A stretch of 15,847 nucleotides of DNA, taken from Candidatus Jordarchaeales archaeon. GTDB taxonomy: Archaea > Asgardarchaeota > Jordiarchaeia > Jordiarchaeales > Freyrarchaeaceae. The notes beneath the pieces are model-generated. The model ran no database searches. It was not told the origin of the DNA and was given only the letters and a program-made list of their open reading frames with translations. The DNA is taken from assembly GCA_038858525.1 (NCBI GenBank), contig JAWCFL010000038.1, positions 1 through 15,847 of the forward strand. Direction: 5' to 3'. Positions 5,984 through 15,847 of this stretch are shown one piece after another (the first letter of the stretch is position 1; each line of letters begins with the position of its first letter). A program made the translations under genes and the position numbers.

Positions 5984-6382
5984 CTAGCTTTGGGTGAGTG
6001 TCGTCGCCTTCTCGTACTTCATAATTCGCTGAACCATTTTTCTGCTTAAAACACCAATTATCCTTCCTTTGTCTGTTACCGCCAGCCTCTTGACGCCCGT
6101 AGACTGGAAAAGCTTCCAGGCATCTGTGAGCGTTGCATCCTTGTCTATCGTGTAAACCTCCCTGACCATTATGTCTCCTGCTTTAACGTTCTCTGGATTC
6201 TGGCGCTGAGCAACAAGCCGGAATATCTGCCCATCAGTTATCAGCCCGACGATCTTTCCACTTCTGTCCTCCACGAAAACTGAACCAACCTCCTCTTCAA
6301 CCATTAACTTAGCGACGAAGGGAACATCGTCATCGATCCTGCAGGTAACCAGTTTACGCCTAGCAACATCCTCAACCTTCAC
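5984..6382 (-). CDS. CBS-domain pair (Bateman) protein
   Basis: Two CBS repeats (VGSVFV...GKIVGLITD; VKRLAV...GRIIGVLS); RBS GGAGG before GTG. Confidence 0.9.
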   Translation of the reverse strand: MKVEDVARRKLVTCRIDDDVPFVAKLMVEEEVGSVFVEDRSGKIVGLITDGQIFRLVAQRQNPENVKAGDIMVREVYTIDKDATLTDAWKLFQSTGVKRLAVTDKGRIIGVLSRKMVQRIMKYEKATTLTQS

Positions 6383-6618: not shown

Positions 6619-6900
6619 TTGAACGTTAAAGTTAATGACCTAGTAAGAATGAAGCGGGGCGTTATCCCCGGCATCGCGAGAAAATTCCGGATAAGTGAGA
6701 GCCAGGCTGAAAACTTTCTCAGGATCGCTATAGAAGAAGCAGCTAGGTCGAAGCGGCTGAGCGTGAAGAAAGGTGAAATATCAGGAGACGACGCAGCAAT
6801 TTCAGAGCTCTTTAGGGAAGTTGAAAGCTGGACTGAAGACGAATTTGACGAAGAAGACTTTGAAATACTCGGATACTGCCGATCGATAAGAGAAGAATAA
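6619..6900 (+). CDS. Hypothetical protein with acidic C-terminus (~93 aa)
   Basis: RBS GGTGG 5 nt before TTG 6619 (track start 6607); basic N-terminal half, acidic tail WTEDEFDEEDFE. Confidence 0.65.
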   Translation: MNVKVNDLVRMKRGVIPGIARKFRISESQAENFLRIAIEEAARSKRLSVKKGEISGDDAAISELFREVESWTEDEFDEEDFEILGYCRSIREE

Positions 6901-6941
6901 GCAATCTTAACGCCACTTTTACCTTCTGCCTCTTTCTCCTT

Positions 6942-7250
6942 TCACACCTCGATAAGTTCCTCTGCCGGTATGAATCTCCTATACCATTTTTCCAGCAATT
7001 CCTCTGTGACCACGTGGAGCTCAACGTTTTCCTCCACGCTTCTGTAAACCTTAACCATCATCTCATATTTGCGCTCAACAACTCCTGTAACTACCATTAC
7101 GTCTATGTCGCTCATCGCCGTAGCCTCCCCCCTAGCAGCTGAACCGAAAATGTAAACCTTCGCCTCCGGATCTATGCTGTGGACTATGCTCTTAACTCTT
7201 CTAGCCACTTCGATGTGCCCTTCAGACACCCGAGCCCTTGAGCTCATCAA
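6942..7250 (-). CDS. Minimal nucleotidyltransferase (MNT), putative antitoxin
   Basis: Intact Pol-beta NTase motif YIFGSAARG...SDIDV plus VELHVV strand; overlaps the HEPN stop. Confidence 0.9.
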   Translation of the reverse strand: MMSSRARVSEGHIEVARRVKSIVHSIDPEAKVYIFGSAARGEATAMSDIDVMVVTGVVERKYEMMVKVYRSVEENVELHVVTEELLEKWYRRFIPAEELIEV

Positions 7251-7633
7251 ACCCCATCCATAAACTTCTTGAACTCCTCAACTACAAACCTGTAGAGACT
7301 TAAAGCCTCCCTTTCCTCATAAACATATGGCGTATACCTTGAAGTTATGTATGCCTCCTCAAGCCTAGCTACATAATGCAACCTGCTCTCATCTTCAACT
7401 AGGGAACTCAGGTCAGGATGAATCCTAGCGAGCTCCCTTATAAGTCTCCTAAGAGAGTGCGTCCTAGGATACGAGCCCGTCTCAACCAACAACTTGTACT
7501 TAAGAATAAGCTGGCAGTACTGCTCCAAGTTGAAAACAGCCAGATCCCACTCCCCGCTCTTAAGCAGCTGCTCAGCGTTCCTCAGAAACGCCTCAGCCCT
7601 CCTCCTAATGACCTCAGCCTCCTCAAGCGACAT
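7247..7633 (-). CDS. HEPN-domain protein, putative toxin
   Basis: Motifs 'DLAVFNLEQ..QL.LK', 'PRTHSL' and 'YITSRY'; RBS GGTGA; directly upstream of MNT. Confidence 0.88.
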   Translation of the reverse strand: MSLEEAEVIRRRAEAFLRNAEQLLKSGEWDLAVFNLEQYCQLILKYKLLVETGSYPRTHSLRRLIRELARIHPDLSSLVEDESRLHYVARLEEAYITSRYTPYVYEEREALSLYRFVVEEFKKFMDGV

Positions 7634-7987
7634 AAGCCATCACCAACTAAAACGCTCCCAATGGGACCAAATCATCACATAGAAAACTCGTTGAGATACA
7701 AGGCTTCGTTTAAATAAACTGGAAGCCAATTAAAGGTAATTAATGTTTTCTCTTTCCTGCTGCTGGACGGGAAAGGCATTTCGCAACATCTGAAAAGGCA
7801 CACAGAGACCGAAGCATTTGTGAGATATCGGGAAGAGTTACGAGTCCCATACGTTCGGCTCGATCAAAGTAGAGAATACATTGTGGCACAAGTTTACTGT
7901 GAGAGGTGCGGCGTCTATGAATCCGTCTGATCCGCTGGGGCAAGGATTAAAGCCGTTAAAAATAGATGGAAGACCATTCAGGAGTAG

Positions 7988-8021
7988 GTTTGGCTTCCTC
8001 TTAAGTTTGGCTTCCTCTTAA
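7988..8021 (+). repeat. Perfect tandem duplication of 17 nt
   Basis: GTTTGGCTTCCTCTTAA at 7988-8004 and 8005-8021. Confidence 0.95.
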
Positions 8022-8409
8022 TAGTGGGCAGTTCGACGTGGGCGTGTCATGTCAAGTTTAGGCGAGTACTGTTGGAGGTCAAAGATGAACTAGAAAACAG
8101 GTTCGACGCCTATTTTGAGATGGCGTCAGAGATTGTGCCCCTGGTCGAGAACAGAGGCGGGGGAAGGTGATGGCACAGTCAGACGAGAAGGCTGCTCACG
8201 CCATATTGCGCGGGCAGCCTGTCGTGGTTCACCTTCAGGCCCGGCGCCGAAAACCATAAAGGATGTCCTTAAGAATAAAGGAAGTGTTTAAGAAAGTTGA
8301 AGAACTGATTGAAAGCCCGTGTCACGAAGCAACTTTGCTCCTTAAATGTTGAAAAAGGCGGTTTCTGCCCTTCTCGTATCAGTTCTTTGTTAGCCTTTTG
8401 GGTGCGAGG

Positions 8410-8787
8410 TTGGAATAGTTTTCCCTGTGTTCGAGTTTATGGGCGAGGAATCTGCTGTCTGCGGCCATTTTGGGATCTCCGTCCTTCACTGTTGTTGATG
8501 TTTCTGATGACGGAAAGATCCTCCTCCATGAGGAAAGAGAAGAACTTCGGCGAGTACTTTAGAGGAATGGGAAAGGTCGCTGAGCTTATAGCCCGCCTCT
8601 CCCCGGACGTTTTGATAGTTAAGAGCATAGGGCCAAGAGCTATAAGTATGTTTGAGTCAATGAGTGTTAATGTGGCGTCTTGCGATGCTTTAACACTGAA
8701 GGACGCTATTAACGCGTACTTTGAGGGCGCCTATTCAGCGCTGACGCATGCGGGGACGCCCGCCACAATCACGCGTGTGGAAGGTGA
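8410..8787 (+). pseudogene. Frameshifted NifB/NifX-family (dinitrogenase FeMo-cofactor biosynthesis domain) gene
   Basis: Family-like segments are spread over three frames: IVFPVFEFMGEESAVCGHFG (8415-8474), SPSFTVVDVSDDGKI (8476-8520), SMRKEKNFGEYFRGMGKVAELI...SIGPRAISMF...LKDAINAYFEG (8525-8728, the track ORF frame), and probably LFSADACGDARHNHACGR* (8731-8787). TTG 8410 follows GGTG. Confidence 0.8.
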
Positions 8788-8792
8788 GAAAA

Positions 8793-9629
8793 ATGGCTGA
8801 AAAACCGAAGCGTCAAGTGCAACGCCTCCAATTAGACGCGATAAAAAAGCGAATGTCCCACGTAAAGCACAAAGTCGTTATTATGAGCGGTAAGGGAGGT
8901 GTGGGCAAGAGCACTGTTGCAGCAAACCTCGCTGTTGTTCTAGCAGAAATGGGTCGAAAAGTTGGCTTGATGGACGCAGACTTCCACGGCCCATCCATAC
9001 CCAAAATACTTGGAGTCCAAGGCATACAACCACAGGTTGGCCCAACCGGAATATACCCAGTCATAGCTGAACGCGGCGTAAGAGTGATCTCCATAGACTT
9101 CTTCCTTCCATCCGGCGACTCGCCTGTGATCTGGAGGGGGCCGCTGAAGATGTCCGCTATAAGGCAGTTTCTCTCAGACGTGGAGTGGGGCGAGCTAGAC
9201 TATTTACTCGTCGATCTTCCCCCGGGAACCGGGGACGAACCCCTAAGCGTGATGCAGCTCATACCTGGAATAGACGGCGTCGTCATTGTGACGGCACCCT
9301 CAGACCTCTCCCAGTACGTTGTGAAGAAAGCTGTTTCCATGGCTAACAGGGTGGGTGTTAGAGTTATAGGGATACTGGAGAACATGAGTGGATTCGTCTG
9401 CCCCAACTGCGGGGCGCGCTTCAACCTCCTCGGCTCAGGAGGAGGGGAAAAAATATCCGTGGATATGGGAGTCCCCTTCCTGGGAAGGATACCGATAGAC
9501 CCAAGCATAAGTGAGGACACCGACCAGGGCACGCCCTTCACACTCAACCACCCTGACTCGCCCGCCACTAAAGCCTTCAAAGAAATAGTTGAACGCATAG
9601 TGAAAGCTGTCGAAGGAGAAAGCGCCTAA
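8793..9629 (+). CDS. mrp: Mrp/ApbC/NBP35-family Fe-S cluster carrier ATPase
   Basis: Deviant Walker A SGKGGVGKST, DADFHGPS, VIWRGP, DLPPGTGD and ENMS..VCPNC motifs; RBS GGTGA before ATG 8793. Confidence 0.93.
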   Translation: MAEKPKRQVQRLQLDAIKKRMSHVKHKVVIMSGKGGVGKSTVAANLAVVLAEMGRKVGLMDADFHGPSIPKILGVQGIQPQVGPTGIYPVIAERGVRVISIDFFLPSGDSPVIWRGPLKMSAIRQFLSDVEWGELDYLLVDLPPGTGDEPLSVMQLIPGIDGVVIVTAPSDLSQYVVKKAVSMANRVGVRVIGILENMSGFVCPNCGARFNLLGSGGGEKISVDMGVPFLGRIPIDPSISEDTDQGTPFTLNHPDSPATKAFKEIVERIVKAVEGESA

Positions 9630-13182: not shown

Positions 13183-13524
13183 TTAAGCTTTAAGCTTCAT
13201 TCTGTGCGCTTCGATGGTTTGGCGAGCTTTGACGTAGCCTTTCAGCGCCATCTCAGCCTCCTCCCTAGTGACGCTTTCCTCCCTGTAGTCTGCCTTCACT
13301 CTAAGCACATACATTTCTCTGAGCGCAAAGGCGGCCTCCCCCAGACCCATACTGTCAAGCGAGTTCGCCAGCTTGTCATCCCGTCTAGGGATCGGCGCCC
13401 TAGCCTCCAAGAGGAACCTTTCAGCTAAGAACCTGAGTGAAAAGTAAAGGGCTGAGACAGCCTTGTTGTAGTAACCGTGTTTAATGTCGTCTAAAGCCTC
13501 CCTGTAGAGCTCGTCAGCCTTCAA
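13183..13524 (-). CDS. HEPN-superfamily protein (UPF0332-like)
   Basis: 'GYYNKAVSALYFS' and 'LRVKADY' motifs; helical, 113 aa; TTGA overlap with the upstream gene. Confidence 0.75.
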   Translation of the reverse strand: MKADELYREALDDIKHGYYNKAVSALYFSLRFLAERFLLEARAPIPRRDDKLANSLDSMGLGEAAFALREMYVLRVKADYREESVTREEAEMALKGYVKARQTIEAHRMKLKA

Positions 13525-14129
13525 CGGAAAGCCTCCAAGTAAAAACTTTCCTCTTCCTCTCTCACTATCATTGGTGCTATTCCCACTTTCCAGCCGTGTT
13601 GCTTTTCGGCTTCCCGCTCTGCCTCCACCACTTTCCGGCGCACGTCGACGGTGTCCTCCCTGACGACGACTACCACATTGCAGCCGTGGAACATGAAGTC
13701 CTCCCTTGGACCAGCGACGACGCTCACGAGCAAGTCCCCTAAAGACTCCCTCAACCTCTGCGCGAAGTCATCGACTGCAACCTTCCACTCTTCCGCTGAC
13801 ACGTCACTCTCGTAAGTTGAAAGAAAAAGGCGCAGCTCATCCTCTTCTTCCTCTCTCACTATCATTGGTGCTATTCCCACTTTCCAGCCGTGTTGCTTTT
13901 CGGCTTCCCGCTCTGCCTCCACCACTTTCCGGCGCACGTCGACGGTGTCCTCCCTGACGACGACTACCACATTGCAGCCGTGGAACATGAAGTCCTCCCT
14001 TGGACCAGCGACGACGCTCACGAGCAAGTCCCCTAAAGACTCCCTCAACCTCTGCGCGAAATAGCAAATAGCGCGCCCCCAATCATCGTTAAACCTCAAA
14101 AACAAGTGTTGCGTCCACCTCAAGGACAA
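13521..14129 (-). CDS. Two-domain degenerate nucleotidyltransferase-fold protein (MNT-like antitoxin)
   Basis: Two copies of helix-'LGD.LVSVV'-strand-'NVVVVVRE'-helix-'IAPMIV' architecture; no GS or DxD; RBS GGAGGG; upstream of a HEPN gene. Confidence 0.65.
   Translation of the reverse strand: MSLRWTQHLFLRFNDDWGRAICYFAQRLRESLGDLLVSVVAGPREDFMFHGCNVVVVVREDTVDVRRKVVEAEREAEKQHGWKVGIAPMIVREEEEDELRLFLSTYESDVSAEEWKVAVDDFAQRLRESLGDLLVSVVAGPREDFMFHGCNVVVVVREDTVDVRRKVVEAEREAEKQHGWKVGIAPMIVREEEESFYLEAFR
13552..14060. repeat. Perfect 215-bp direct repeat, period 294 bp
   Basis: 13552-13766 is identical to 13846-14060 by base-by-base comparison, with a 79-bp unique spacer; the period equals 98 codons, so the copies are in frame. 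Confidence 0.95.
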
Positions 14130-14166: not shown

Positions 14167-15102
14167 TTATCGGGTCACCGCCACATACTTCAATCCTACC
14201 TTCCTAACAATCCCCCTCCTCATAAGCTCCTCTAAATGCTTCTCTATCATAACTTTTTCCCAATACCTTAAAAGAGGCTCAGCGTAGGGAAATGACCCAT
14301 ATATTGGCGCCTCCTCGACGAGCTGATCTATCGTCTTTCCCTCCTCGAGGAGCTTCAGTATCCTCGTTTCTCTCTCGTCGATCCTACCTAGAAACTTGTT
14401 AAACTCGCCTTCTATGTTCTCTCTAACTATACCCTTATGCCCCGAGACGACGATTCTAGGCTTCAACGACCTAATCCTCTCTATCGACCTTCTTGTTTCA
14501 TCTATGCTGGATTCTCTATGCCCATACCATGGGCCGAAAGGCGTGAAGTCGTAGTCGAAGGAGAGTAGGACTCTTTCATGCGGCTCGTAGAAGCAGTAGT
14601 GGTCGGAGGTATGGCCAGGCGTGTGTAGGGCGACTAGAGTGGTCTCCCCGAACCTGAAAACATCCCCCTCGCTGTAGCTTACCGTTGGAATACACTCCTT
14701 AATGTTCATGTTCTCCTTCACGAAGTTTATCCAGTACTCGGTGATGTTCGGCTCAACAAATCTTTCAGCGAGAGCCTGCAGCCTTCCACTGGTAGCGAAC
14801 CCCTCACGAGGAACGTAGATGGGCACGTCCTCGAAAACCCAGTTTCCAGCGGAATGGTCAGGATGCGTGTGAGAATTGATGACGAGATCCACCCTCCACT
14901 CTCTTCTAATTTCCTTTAGATGCTCTATTCCGCATCCCGAGTCTACCAGCACGTTTCTTTCATCCAGAATGAGAACAGAGAATGAGTGAGGGAACCTGCC
15001 ATTACCATCTCCACGCACCAAGTAAATGTTACCACAAACCTTCTCTAGTACAACCACAATGGCTCCCCCAGAAAACATTAACGATTTTTGCGTAAAGCCC
15101 AC
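14167..15102 (-). CDS. Metallo-beta-lactamase-fold hydrolase with probable C-terminal winged-helix-like extension
   Basis: Motifs LVDSG, SHTHPDH, HTPGHT, FDYD and SGHKG. Start is GTG 15102 or GTG 15057. Confidence 0.88.
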   Translation of the reverse strand: MGFTQKSLMFSGGAIVVVLEKVCGNIYLVRGDGNGRFPHSFSVLILDERNVLVDSGCGIEHLKEIRREWRVDLVINSHTHPDHSAGNWVFEDVPIYVPREGFATSGRLQALAERFVEPNITEYWINFVKENMNIKECIPTVSYSEGDVFRFGETTLVALHTPGHTSDHYCFYEPHERVLLSFDYDFTPFGPWYGHRESSIDETRRSIERIRSLKPRIVVSGHKGIVRENIEGEFNKFLGRIDERETRILKLLEEGKTIDQLVEEAPIYGSFPYAEPLLRYWEKVMIEKHLEELMRRGIVRKVGLKYVAVTR

Positions 15103-15173: not shown

Positions 15174-15847
15174 TTAGTACTCTATGCCTATTCTTGCCTG
15201 CACTCCCCTCCTATACGGATGCTTAACCTCTCTCATTTCCGTAACTAGGTCCGCTGCCTCAATAACCTCTTTCGGCGCGTCTCTTCCAGTAAGCACGACT
15301 TCAACGTTTTCAGCCTTCTCAGCGAGTAATCTTATGACATCCTCCAGCCTGATGAGTTTTAGGTTTAGGGCAGTGTTTACCTCATCCAGTATGACGACGT
15401 CGTAATCCCCGCTCATCACTGCATCCCTCGCTTTTCTAAGAGCTTTCTCGGCTTCAACGTAATCCTCCTCCGATGGCGGGTTCGAAACGAAACGTCCACG
15501 GCCATAAGCTTCAAGGTGAAGGTTAGGAAGGTAAACTGACGAGTACAGTTCCCCGTAGTCGAAACCTCCCTTAATGAACTGTATTACACATACGCGTAGC
15601 CCTCTACCTATAGCCCTCAGCGCCAGCCCGAAGGCCGCACTCGTCTTACCCTTACCGTTGCCCGTGTAAACCTGAACAAGCCCCCTTTCAAGTCTGCGGC
15701 GAGGCGGAGGTGACACGTACTCGGCTTTAAGTACTCTCGCCAGTATCTCCTCAGCAGCGCTTTTCAAGTCCAGCTCGCCAGTCTCCACAAGTCTCTCTAT
15801 GGACCTAAACTCCTCCCTTTTCATTATGTTGAAAATCTTCTCCTCGA
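15174..15847 (-). CDS. cobA: Cob(I)yrinic acid a,c-diamide adenosyltransferase (CobA/BtuR/CobO type), probably the C-terminal domain of a longer 5'-truncated fusion
   Basis: GLVQVYTGNGKGKTSAAFGLALRA.G, IQFIKG, VILDEVN, VVLTGR.AP, ADLVTEMREVKHPY..G..AR.GIEY. The frame stays open upstream of ATG 15824 to the edge (xEEKIFNI), with no RBS seen. Confidence 0.9.
   Translation of the reverse strand, partial: EEKIFNIMKREEFRSIERLVETGELDLKSAAEEILARVLKAEYVSPPPRRRLERGLVQVYTGNGKGKTSAAFGLALRAIGRGLRVCVIQFIKGGFDYGELYSSVYLPNLHLEAYGRGRFVSNPPSEEDYVEAEKALRKARDAVMSGDYDVVILDEVNTALNLKLIRLEDVIRLLAEKAENVEVVLTGRDAPKEVIEAADLVTEMREVKHPYRRGVQARIGIEY

What the first reader, a model, noticed from the sequence alone, without database searches (positions are those of the whole stretch)
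15174..15847. Probable MeaB/ArgK GTPase - CobA adenosyltransferase fusion (single-chain B12 delivery machine)
Seen: the CobA core starts about 47 aa after the called Met, and the frame has no stop up to the window edge (…EEKIFNIMKREEFRSIERLVETGELDLKSAAEEILARVLK-AEYVSPPPRRRLERG-LVQVYTG). Known: MeaB/MMAA G-protein chaperones end in a helix resembling 'V..GE.DPYSAA..LL', and they gate transfer of adenosylcobalamin from the adenosyltransferase to methylmalonyl-CoA mutase. Fusions of this GTPase to a mutase (IcmF) are established. Inference: 'LVETGELDLKSAAEEIL' is a MeaB C-terminus joined by a Pro/Arg linker to CobA, physically linking cofactor synthesis and gated loading. I do not recall a characterised example.
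Basis: partly seen in the sequence, partly recalled or inferred. Interest (0 to 1): 0.8.

Follow-up and report, generated by a model that had tools for sequence, protein, structure and literature searches.

The report
MeaB GTPase–CobA adenosyltransferase fusion protein
The open reading frame cut off by the end of the window is the last 223 codons of a 500-residue archaeal protein that joins the G-protein chaperone of vitamin-B12 mutases (MeaB) to the enzyme that makes the active cofactor (CobA), an uncharacterised natural fusion that could serve as a single-chain model for how B12 is handed to its enzyme.

Summary
The window is a whole contig (G000:C38). The minus-strand frame 15174-15845 has no stop up to the edge. 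It holds a full CobA_CobO_BtuR domain preceded by about 50 residues homologous to the MeaB C-terminal arm.

The missing 5' part is not on any contig of this assembly. Twelve public contigs of the same species carry a 500-aa ORF with a complete MeaB GTPase (P-loop, switch I/II, NKAD). The four aligned are 99.4-100% identical to the window's flank. They also bridge contig C28 (mutase large and small subunits) to C38 across an 837-bp assembly gap.

The operon is flavin reductase, acyl-CoA mutase large subunit, B12-binding small subunit, then MeaB::CobA. The large subunit has Phe89/Gln207, the isobutyryl-CoA-mutase signature.

In 400 genomes sampled from the phylum, an uninterrupted fusion was found only in this family. 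About 30 further fused clusters (the named ones from Bathyarchaeia) exist in public protein data, auto-annotated as MeaB or as CobA. Related genomes have adjacent, separate genes.

No paper describing a MeaB-adenosyltransferase fusion was found. I read it as a new variant of the known MeaB/adenosyltransferase/mutase system. Its function is inferred, not tested. This scan noted the unfused four-gene module in other genomes, but not the fusion.

The parts
15174..15847 (-). 3' part (codons 278-500 plus stop) of the meaB::cobA fusion gene. It is cut by the contig end. The full gene is 500 codons in same-species contigs (L058:6001-7503).
   Evidence: Open frame. It is 100% identical to residues 278-500 of P0002 and P0003. 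Window base 15847 corresponds to L058 base 6830.
15732..15845 (-). C-terminal helical dimerisation arm of the MeaB domain (P0003 residues 278-315)
   Evidence: It aligns to the C-terminal helices of solved MeaB-family chains (3md0, 2qm7, 8dpb). It is helical in the AF2 model (H262-285, H288-298, H304-315). It forms part of the predicted homodimer interface.
15696..15731 (-). Pro/Arg-rich linker (P0003 residues 316-327, ...KAEYVSPPPRRR...). Its second half corresponds to the N-terminus of stand-alone CobA in relatives.
   Evidence: Columns are variable in length and poorly conserved among 28 fused proteins. The AF2 model shows coil at 316-333. In G005 the stop codon and ATG lie at this position (...KFVG*MITLRQRLTEG).
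15177..15695 (-). CobA/CobO/BtuR-type ATP:co(I)rrinoid adenosyltransferase domain (P0003 residues 328-500) with the P-loop GNGKGKTS
   Evidence: Pfam PF02572 scores 215.9 bits. TIGR00708 scores 192.8 against a cut-off of 167.75. S. enterica CobA 1g5r/4hut match at E 7e-27. Foldseek gives TMt 0.84-0.90.
14167..15102 (-). Downstream metallo-beta-lactamase-fold hydrolase gene. It follows the fusion in the same order in G004 and in same-species contigs. Its role in the system is unknown.
   Evidence: ORF. Pfam Lactamase_B on the orthologue in L056. The same neighbour is present in G004.

Best explanation
The window ends inside a single gene encoding a 500-residue, two-domain protein. The N-terminal part is a MeaB/MMAA-type G3E GTPase (residues about 1-315, including its C-terminal dimerisation arm). 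A 12-residue Pro/Arg linker joins it to a C-terminal CobA-type ATP:co(I)rrinoid adenosyltransferase (residues 328-500).

The gene is the last of an operon: flavin reductase, acyl-CoA mutase large subunit (Phe89/Gln207, isobutyryl-CoA-mutase type), B12-binding small subunit, then meaB::cobA. The window holds only codons 278-500, because the assembly breaks 837 bp into the gene.

Proposed mechanism (inferred):
- The protein is a homodimer held together by both the MeaB arm and the CobA dimer interface.
- The CobA domain adenosylates salvaged cob(I)alamin with ATP.
- The GTP-bound G domain binds the mutase's B12-binding subunit and holds it open.
- AdoCbl passes from the tethered CobA domain to the mutase.
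- GTP hydrolysis closes and releases the loaded enzyme. The reverse route removes damaged cob(II)alamin for re-adenosylation.

The fusion arose by loss of the stop codon between adjacent in-frame meaB and cobA genes.
For: SHOWN
- The frame is open to the contig edge and holds a CobA domain.
- P0002-P0004 (496-500 aa, MeaB plus CobA Pfam domains) are 100% identical to the window protein in the search table. P0003 lies on 12 contigs.
- blastn shows the window and G000:C28 are collinear with those contigs at 99.4-100% identity, leaving an 837-bp gap that equals codons 1-277.
- Both equivalog HMMs pass. PDB sequence hits are MeaB 8dpb/2qm7 for residues 12-311 and CobA 1g5r for residues 327-500.
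- In the AF2 model, the domains match MeaB (TMt 0.75-0.81) and CobA (TMt up to 0.90).
- Catalytic motifs of both domains are invariant across 28 fused homologues.
- G004, from the same family but another genus, has an uninterrupted 510-codon frame with the same neighbours.
- Relatives show the unfused precursor state, meaB-stop-ATG-cobA in frame.
- The adjacent mutase has Phe/Gln where the genome's second mutase and solved MCMs have Tyr/Arg.
- No PduO-type adenosyltransferase, CbiC, CbiB or CobS was found in the 92.7%-complete genome, so CobA-type enzymes are the only adenosyltransferases detected and are not serving de novo synthesis.
- G002 lost both mutase genes and the G domain in one 3.06-kb deletion but kept the MeaB tail plus CobA. 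It has no mutase anywhere in its assembly.

MODEL ONLY
- The homodimer prediction scored 0.70 against a best control of 0.00. That mark was reached by 20 of 30 proteins solved as pairs of one chain and by 1 of 23 solved as single chains.
- The runs agree in at least 75% of contacts, and partner pLDDT is at least 76.
- The interface uses residues 264-317 plus the CobA domain.
- MeaB and CobA dimers are both solved, so this pass may reflect likeness to known structures.
Against: - The G domain is absent from every contig of the window's own assembly.
- No activity, GTPase gating or cofactor transfer has been measured for any member.
- Known G-protein-gated transfer uses PduO-type (MMAB) adenosyltransferases. 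Direct transfer from a CobA-type enzyme to a mutase has not been shown, to my knowledge.
- Trp93 of S. enterica CobA aligns to Val/Ile, and the conserved Phe is offset by one position.
- The fused MeaB is the only MeaB found in G004, so it may serve the Tyr/Arg mutase as well. The client assignment is by gene neighbourhood only.
Confidence: 0.8

Rival explanations
1. In this strain the gene is a 5'-truncated remnant, as in G002. It would be a CobA with only a MeaB-tail leader, translated from the internal ATG at 15824 or a start just beyond the edge, with no G domain.
For: G002, of the same genus, has exactly such a 239-244-codon gene. No MeaB G domain is found on any contig of G000, G001 or G003. 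A GAGGAG lies 15 nt upstream of the ATG at 15824.
Against: G000 keeps both mutase genes, which G002 lost together with the G domain. Contig C28 ends 1 nt after the stop of the small subunit. Both contig ends are 100% identical to L057 and L058, where 837 bp of intact meaB lie between them. Homology to MeaB continues upstream of the Met to the last base of the window.
Confidence: 0.04
2. The fusion is real but has no channelling role. The CobA domain would be a general housekeeping adenosyltransferase that happens to be co-translated with MeaB. AdoCbl would be released to solution and used by any AdoCbl enzyme.
For: Fused and separate forms interconvert easily on the tree, with at least 3-5 changes, which suggests weak selection on covalent linkage. 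The linker is short and poorly conserved. S. enterica CobA acts on many corrinoids (established knowledge).
Against: The genome has a second, stand-alone CobA whose gene overlaps a ribonucleotide reductase gene. This suggests one adenosyltransferase per client rather than one general enzyme. cobA is linked to mutase, B12-subunit and meaB genes across Bathyarchaeia, G016 and several bacteria. Free AdoCbl release is disfavoured in the studied PduO-type systems (PMC11672702, section 5.1.3).
Confidence: 0.12
3. The long ORF is an assembly or gene-calling artefact, for example a chimeric join or a sequencing error that removes a stop between two separate genes.
For: Close relatives have a single in-frame stop at the junction (G005 TAG, G007 TGA), so one base error could mimic a fusion.
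Against: The identical 500-aa ORF occurs on 12 contigs, the four shown coming from four separate NCBI assemblies. Two further clusters at 84-85% identity, G004 at 73%, and about 25 more distant clusters are all uninterrupted. In the fused forms the junction has no relic stop or ATG. It has a distinct Pro/Arg linker instead.
Confidence: 0.02

Closest known systems
MeaB/MMAA G-protein + ATR (MMAB, PduO-type) + methylmalonyl-CoA mutase cofactor-delivery system (Methylobacterium extorquens, human)
   Same: It has the same three functions: a G3E GTPase with P-loop, switch I/II, switch-III-like D/Q/K residues and NKxD; an adenosyltransferase; and an AdoCbl mutase with a separate B12-binding element. 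The G domain aligns to 2qm7/8dpb over residues 12-311.
   Different: Here the G protein and the adenosyltransferase are one polypeptide. The adenosyltransferase is CobA-type (a P-loop enzyme, dimeric in the solved Salmonella protein), not PduO-type, which is trimeric according to the literature. No PduO-type gene was found in the genome. The neighbouring mutase has the Phe/Gln signature, not Tyr/Arg. The host is an archaeon.
IcmF (isobutyryl-CoA mutase fused; Cupriavidus metallidurans, 4xc6)
   Same: It is the only fused G-protein chaperone named in the literature I read (PMC10481361). It is also a MeaB-like G domain covalently tied to a partner in an isobutyryl-CoA-mutase-type system. The G domain matches residues 14-209 at E 1e-25.
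   Different: In IcmF the G domain is fused between the B12 and substrate domains of the mutase, and the adenosyltransferase is separate. Here the mutase subunits are separate genes and the G domain is fused to the adenosyltransferase.
Salmonella enterica CobA (1g5r, 4hut) / stand-alone archaeal CobA
   Same: It shares the fold and the P-loop GNGKGKT. Identity is about 35%, with TMt up to 0.90.
   Different: It has no free N-terminus, because the position of CobA's N-terminal segment is taken by the linker to MeaB. The Trp93 equivalent is Val/Ile. The host shows no de novo corrin pathway.
Unfused icmA-icmB-meaB-cobA operons of Bathyarchaeia (L060-L068), G016, and the window's sister family (G005-G010)
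   Same: The gene order and the Phe/Gln mutase are the same. The CobA part is 62-71% identical to the window's in Bathyarchaeia.
   Different: In these operons meaB and cobA are separated by a stop codon or overlap in different frames.

Membership tests
MeaB/MMAA G3E GTPase (TIGR00750, PF03308) | Whole-domain profile score above the curated equivalog cut-off | tested here: met
   TIGR00750 scores 323.2 bits against a cut-off of 240.75 over residues 19-312 of P0003. Only residues 278-315 of that domain lie in the window.
MeaB/MMAA G3E GTPase (TIGR00750, PF03308) | P-loop GxxGxGKS, switch I (GGAxLGDR), switch II (ETxGxGQS) and base-specificity NKxD | tested here: met
   All are present in P0003 and invariant in 28 fused homologues. 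They lie outside the window, in same-species contigs.
MeaB/MMAA G3E GTPase (TIGR00750, PF03308) | Switch III residues (Asp/Gln/Lys) needed for gating | tested here: met
   D179, Q182 and K185 in GDEIQALKAG are invariant. Their equivalence to MeaB D182/Q185/K188 is from memory plus the alignment offset, not from a structure overlay.
MeaB/MMAA G3E GTPase (TIGR00750, PF03308) | C-terminal helical dimerisation arm | tested here: met
   Window residues align to the C-terminal helices of 3md0 and 2qm7. They lie in the predicted dimer interface (model only).
MeaB/MMAA G3E GTPase (TIGR00750, PF03308) | GTPase activity stimulated by the mutase, and gating of AdoCbl transfer | not testable with these tools
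   This needs biochemistry.
CobA/CobO/BtuR ATP:co(I)rrinoid adenosyltransferase (PF02572, TIGR00708) | Profile score above cut-off and full-length domain | tested here: met
   PF02572 scores 215.9 against 25.7, covering profile positions 1-172 of 172, on the window's own translation. TIGR00708 scores 192.8 against 167.75.
CobA/CobO/BtuR ATP:co(I)rrinoid adenosyltransferase (PF02572, TIGR00708) | Modified P-loop GxGKGKT and acidic Walker-B (LDE) | tested here: met
   GNGKGKTS and VILDE are in the window and invariant in the family.
CobA/CobO/BtuR ATP:co(I)rrinoid adenosyltransferase (PF02572, TIGR00708) | Phe91/Trp93 pair of S. enterica CobA that displaces the lower ligand | tested here: inconclusive
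   The alignment places Arg-Phe-Val opposite Phe-Thr-Trp. A nearly invariant Phe (F396) lies one position later, and Trp is replaced by Val/Ile.
IcmF (NF045497) | G domain in one chain with mutase B12 and substrate domains | tested here: not met
   NF045497 scores 126.6 bits against a cut-off of 1500. The mutase large and small subunits are separate ORFs upstream.
Isobutyryl-CoA mutase type (IcmA/IcmB) for the neighbouring mutase | Phe and Gln at the positions of MCM Tyr89 and Arg207, and not Ile90/Asp117 as in 2-hydroxyisobutyryl-CoA mutase | tested here: met
   The neighbouring mutase reads TMRQF and EFIAQK. The second mutase in the genome and the solved MCMs have Tyr/Arg. HcmA (4r3u) has Ile and Asp where this protein has Phe and Ala. 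The meaning of the signature is recalled literature, and substrate use is untested.

The most novel reading that the evidence does not exclude
The fusion is a self-contained 'make-and-load' machine built on a different adenosyltransferase from the one studied so far. A dimeric CobA-type enzyme, tethered in cis to the dimeric G protein, would hand AdoCbl directly to an isobutyryl-CoA-type mutase under GTP control. This would show that G-protein-gated B12 delivery evolved independently of the PduO/MMAB fold.
Probability: 0.4. Interest if true: 0.7.

Novelty: new variant of a known kind. Interest (0 to 1): 0.58.

Why it matters
How AdoCbl passes from the adenosyltransferase to the mutase under control of the G protein is still debated, and the ternary complex is transient (PMC9164220, PMC11672702). 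A natural, probably thermostable, single chain holds the G protein and the adenosyltransferase at 1:1 stoichiometry. With small separate mutase subunits, it offers a tractable object for cryo-EM and transfer kinetics.

It also indicates that CobA-type enzymes, usually treated as biosynthetic or salvage enzymes, can take the MMAB-like delivery role in archaea that lack PduO-type enzymes.

For annotation, these 500-residue proteins are currently named after only one of their two halves. Half-length calls at contig ends, as in this window, hide the architecture.

Tried and rejected
- I searched the window's own genome for the G domain, with the G004 protein and with PF03308. Only weak hits to other P-loop GTPases came back, so the domain is not on any contig.
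- I tried to name the organism through cluster look-ups of neighbouring proteins. No names were returned.
- The class-level survey is small, at 11 genomes.
- The search for related loci suggested nine Bathyarchaeia 'fusions' covering residues 11-500. Inspection showed they are separate genes, divided by a stop or a frame overlap, so I did not count them as fusions.
- Literature searches for the Tyr89/Arg207 versus Phe/Gln signature returned nothing usable. That rule is cited from memory.
Read support across the gap and expression could not be examined, and read laying was not used.
- I considered a 2-hydroxyisobutyryl-CoA mutase identity for the neighbour, since its best PDB hit is 4r3u. I rejected it because the protein lacks Ile90 and Asp117.
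- I considered recoding of the in-frame stops in relatives. I rejected it because TAG, TGA and TAA all occur there, each followed by an ATG.

Full report
**Observation.** The window is the complete contig C38 of its assembly. On the minus strand, the frame 15845 to 15177 has no stop before the contig edge and ends at TAA 15174-15176. Pfam CobA_CobO_BtuR covers residues 53-223 of the 223-residue open frame (215.9 bits, full profile). The "called Met" at 15824 is internal, because the seven residues before it (EEKIFNI) align with EEKILSL in G004 and EEKLSSI in G002. The segment ERLVETGELDLKSAAEEIL aligns with the last helix of solved MeaB-family proteins.

**Extending the gene.** The contig cannot be extended within its assembly. 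No MeaB G domain is found on any of the 63 contigs, either with the G004 protein or with PF03308.

Three other lines recover the missing part.
- The same-family genome G004 has an uninterrupted 510-codon frame containing GPPGSGKS, DPSSP, ETVGAGQ and NKAD, followed by the same tail, linker and CobA domain. It is 74% identical to the window part.
- A search for longer homologues returned P0002, P0003 and P0004 (496-500 aa). They are reported as 100% identical to the window over all 223 residues (P0004 shows one Leu-to-Ile change in the printed sequence) and carry both PF03308 and PF02572.
- P0003 is encoded on 12 public contigs. The four shown come from four separate NCBI assemblies (GCA_038881135.1, GCA_038819355.1, GCA_038866325.1, GCA_038871535.1).

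blastn shows that the window aligns to these four contigs at 99.4-100% identity, up to its last base (window 15847 = locus position 6830). Contig C28 of the window's genome aligns at 99.8-100% and ends at locus position 5992, one base after the stop of the mutase small subunit. The assembly gap is therefore 837 bp and corresponds to codons 1-277 of the fusion gene (L058:6001-7503). A GGAGG lies just upstream of the ATG at 6001, and an alternative GTG start lies four codons later.

**What the protein is.** Both halves pass curated equivalog thresholds. TIGR00750 (MeaB) scores 323.2 against 240.75 over residues 19-312. TIGR00708 (cobA) scores 192.8 against 167.75 over residues 328-500. PDB sequence hits are MeaB (8dpb, 2qm7) and MMAA (2www) for the N-terminal part, and S. 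enterica CobA (1g5r, 4hut) for residues 327-500.

An AF2 model (mean pLDDT 79) shows two folded domains joined by coil at 316-333. Foldseek matches MeaB/MMAA chains at TMt 0.75-0.81 and CobA at TMt up to 0.90. No solved chain covers both domains.

In an alignment of 28 fused proteins, the catalytic motifs of both domains are invariant. The linker varies in length and sequence.
- MeaB half: GxxGxGKS, GGAxLGDR, ETxGxGQS, D179/Q182/K185 and NKxD.
- CobA half: GxGKGKT, DE, TGR and HP.

**Context.** In the same-species contigs the operon reads as follows (NCBIfam).
- A flavin reductase (171 aa).
- An acyl-CoA mutase large subunit (559 aa).
- A B12-binding small subunit (134 aa).
- MeaB::CobA (500 aa).
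- A metallo-beta-lactamase-fold hydrolase, which is the window gene 14167-15102.

The large subunit reads TMRQF and EFIAQK. The genome's second mutase (contig C9) reads TMRQY and EYIAR, and solved methylmalonyl-CoA mutases likewise have Tyr and Arg at these positions. 2-hydroxyisobutyryl-CoA mutase has Ile and an Asp that this protein lacks. By the literature rule I recall (Tyr89/Arg207 in MCM, Phe/Gln in isobutyryl-CoA mutase), the neighbour is of the isobutyryl-CoA-mutase type.

Across the loci I fetched, a linked cobA mostly accompanies a Phe/Gln mutase. This holds in Bathyarchaeia, in G016 and in several bacterial loci. There are two exceptions, G020 and G038, where the mutase is Tyr/Arg.

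**Cofactor economy of the host.** In the 92.7%-complete genome I found no CbiC, CbiB/CobD, CobS or PduO-type adenosyltransferase. The organism therefore appears to salvage complete corrinoids. CobA-type enzymes are the only adenosyltransferases detected, and they cannot be serving de novo synthesis. A second, stand-alone CobA (46% identical) lies on contig C20. Its gene overlaps the 3' end of a ribonucleotide reductase gene. This fits one adenosyltransferase per AdoCbl client.

**Evolution.**
- In 400 genomes sampled from the phylum, an uninterrupted fusion was found only in the window's family. The sister family (G005-G010) and G144/G146 have meaB and cobA adjacent, often in the same frame with one stop (TAG, TGA or TAA) followed by ATG.
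- GTDB-representative Bathyarchaeia have the same four-gene order with separate or overlapping genes.
- About 30 clusters of true fused ORFs of about 500 aa exist in the protein collection. The named ones are "Candidatus Bathyarchaeota", annotated as MeaB (MCK4669017.1, TET64169.1) or as adenosyltransferase.
- On a concatenated MeaB+CobA tree, the window's clade nests among Bathyarchaeia sequences (SH-aLRT 90) and away from its own order. The fused state needs 5 changes on the tree, of which well-supported branches force at least 3 (quick search, no AU test). Horizontal transfer and repeated fusion or fission are therefore likely but not proven.
- G002, of the same genus, is a natural deletion. 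About 150 bp replace 3.06 kb that held both mutase genes and MeaB codons 1 to about 265, leaving the MeaB tail plus CobA. G002 has no mutase anywhere in its 95%-complete assembly.

**Mechanism (inferred).** MeaB and S. enterica CobA were both solved as dimers. A homodimer prediction for the fusion scored 0.70 against a best control of 0.00. That mark was reached by 20 of 30 proteins solved as pairs of one chain and by 1 of 23 solved as single chains. The runs agree in at least 75% of contacts, and partner pLDDT is at least 76. The interface combines the MeaB arm (264-317) with CobA surfaces (329-384, 475-500). Because both parent dimers are solved, this pass may reflect likeness rather than new information.

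I propose the known MeaB logic (PMC11672702 section 5.1.3; PMC10481361) with the adenosyltransferase tethered in cis. CobA makes AdoCbl from salvaged cobalamin, possibly reduced with help from the upstream flavin reductase. GTP-bound MeaB opens the mutase through its B12-binding subunit. The cofactor is then transferred, and GTP hydrolysis closes the mutase.

**Novelty.** The papers I read name IcmF as the notable exception to stand-alone G-protein chaperones (PMC10481361; also PMC9164220 and PMC11672702). Six full-text searches found no description of a MeaB-adenosyltransferase fusion. The library lacks many subscription papers, so this is absence of evidence only. The sequences themselves are public and auto-annotated. 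Earlier notes of this scan describe the unfused four-gene module in other genomes, but not the fusion. I classify it as a new variant of a known kind.

**Limits.**
- The G domain's presence in this exact strain is inferred from same-species contigs.
- The taxonomic name was not obtained.
- All functional statements are inferences from homology and gene neighbourhood.

Noticed in passing
window 13549-13766 and 13843-14060 (inside ORF 13521-14129, minus strand): There is a perfect 218-nt direct repeat, with a spacing of 294 nt, inside a 202-aa ORF that has no Pfam hit. Copy number differs between otherwise near-identical same-species assemblies: the product is 102 aa in L057, 162 aa in L059 and 200 aa in L056/L058.
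   Followed up: partly
G000:C20 (L140:6304-6867 and 6840-8954, minus strand): A second, stand-alone CobA paralogue (187 aa, 46% identical) has a gene that overlaps by 28 nt the end of a 704-aa ribonucleotide reductase gene with an ATP-cone. This suggests a dedicated adenosyltransferase for an AdoCbl-dependent reductase.
   Followed up: partly
G000:C28:420-2192 (minus strand), off window: The mutase large subunit next to the fusion has Phe89/Gln207 (isobutyryl-CoA-mutase signature). The genome's other mutase (G000:C9, L042:1474-3141) has Tyr/Arg and sits beside thiolase and DUF35-like genes.
   Followed up: yes
G002:C1 (L055:4308-4458 against L058:3735-6794): A same-genus genome carries a 3.06-kb deletion that removed both mutase genes and the MeaB G domain. 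It kept the flavin reductase and a MeaB-tail-CobA gene, and it has no acyl-CoA mutase anywhere.
   Followed up: yes
G000 whole genome: No CbiC, CbiB/CobD, CobS or PduO-type adenosyltransferase was found at 92.7% completeness. The organism looks like a salvager of complete corrinoids.
   Followed up: partly
G000:C28:2256-2771; L056:3222-3737; L003:784-1317: A Flavin_Reduct-family gene heads the operon, and G002 retains it next to the CobA remnant. In G004 it lies upstream on the opposite strand. It may be the reductant supplier for cobalamin reduction, but this is untested.
   Followed up: no
G000:C38 end, G003:C89 end, G003:C90 start, G001:C109 start: Three of the four genomes of this genus break their contigs inside this operon, at different positions. 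The cause is not determined; it could be strain variation or the paralogous mutase.
   Followed up: no
L069-L079, L093 (Geobacteraceae and other bacteria): These bacterial loci carry cobA, the mutase B12 subunit and meaB together but in a different order, with cobA first. The linkage of a CobA-type adenosyltransferase with MeaB is therefore not confined to archaea.
   Followed up: no
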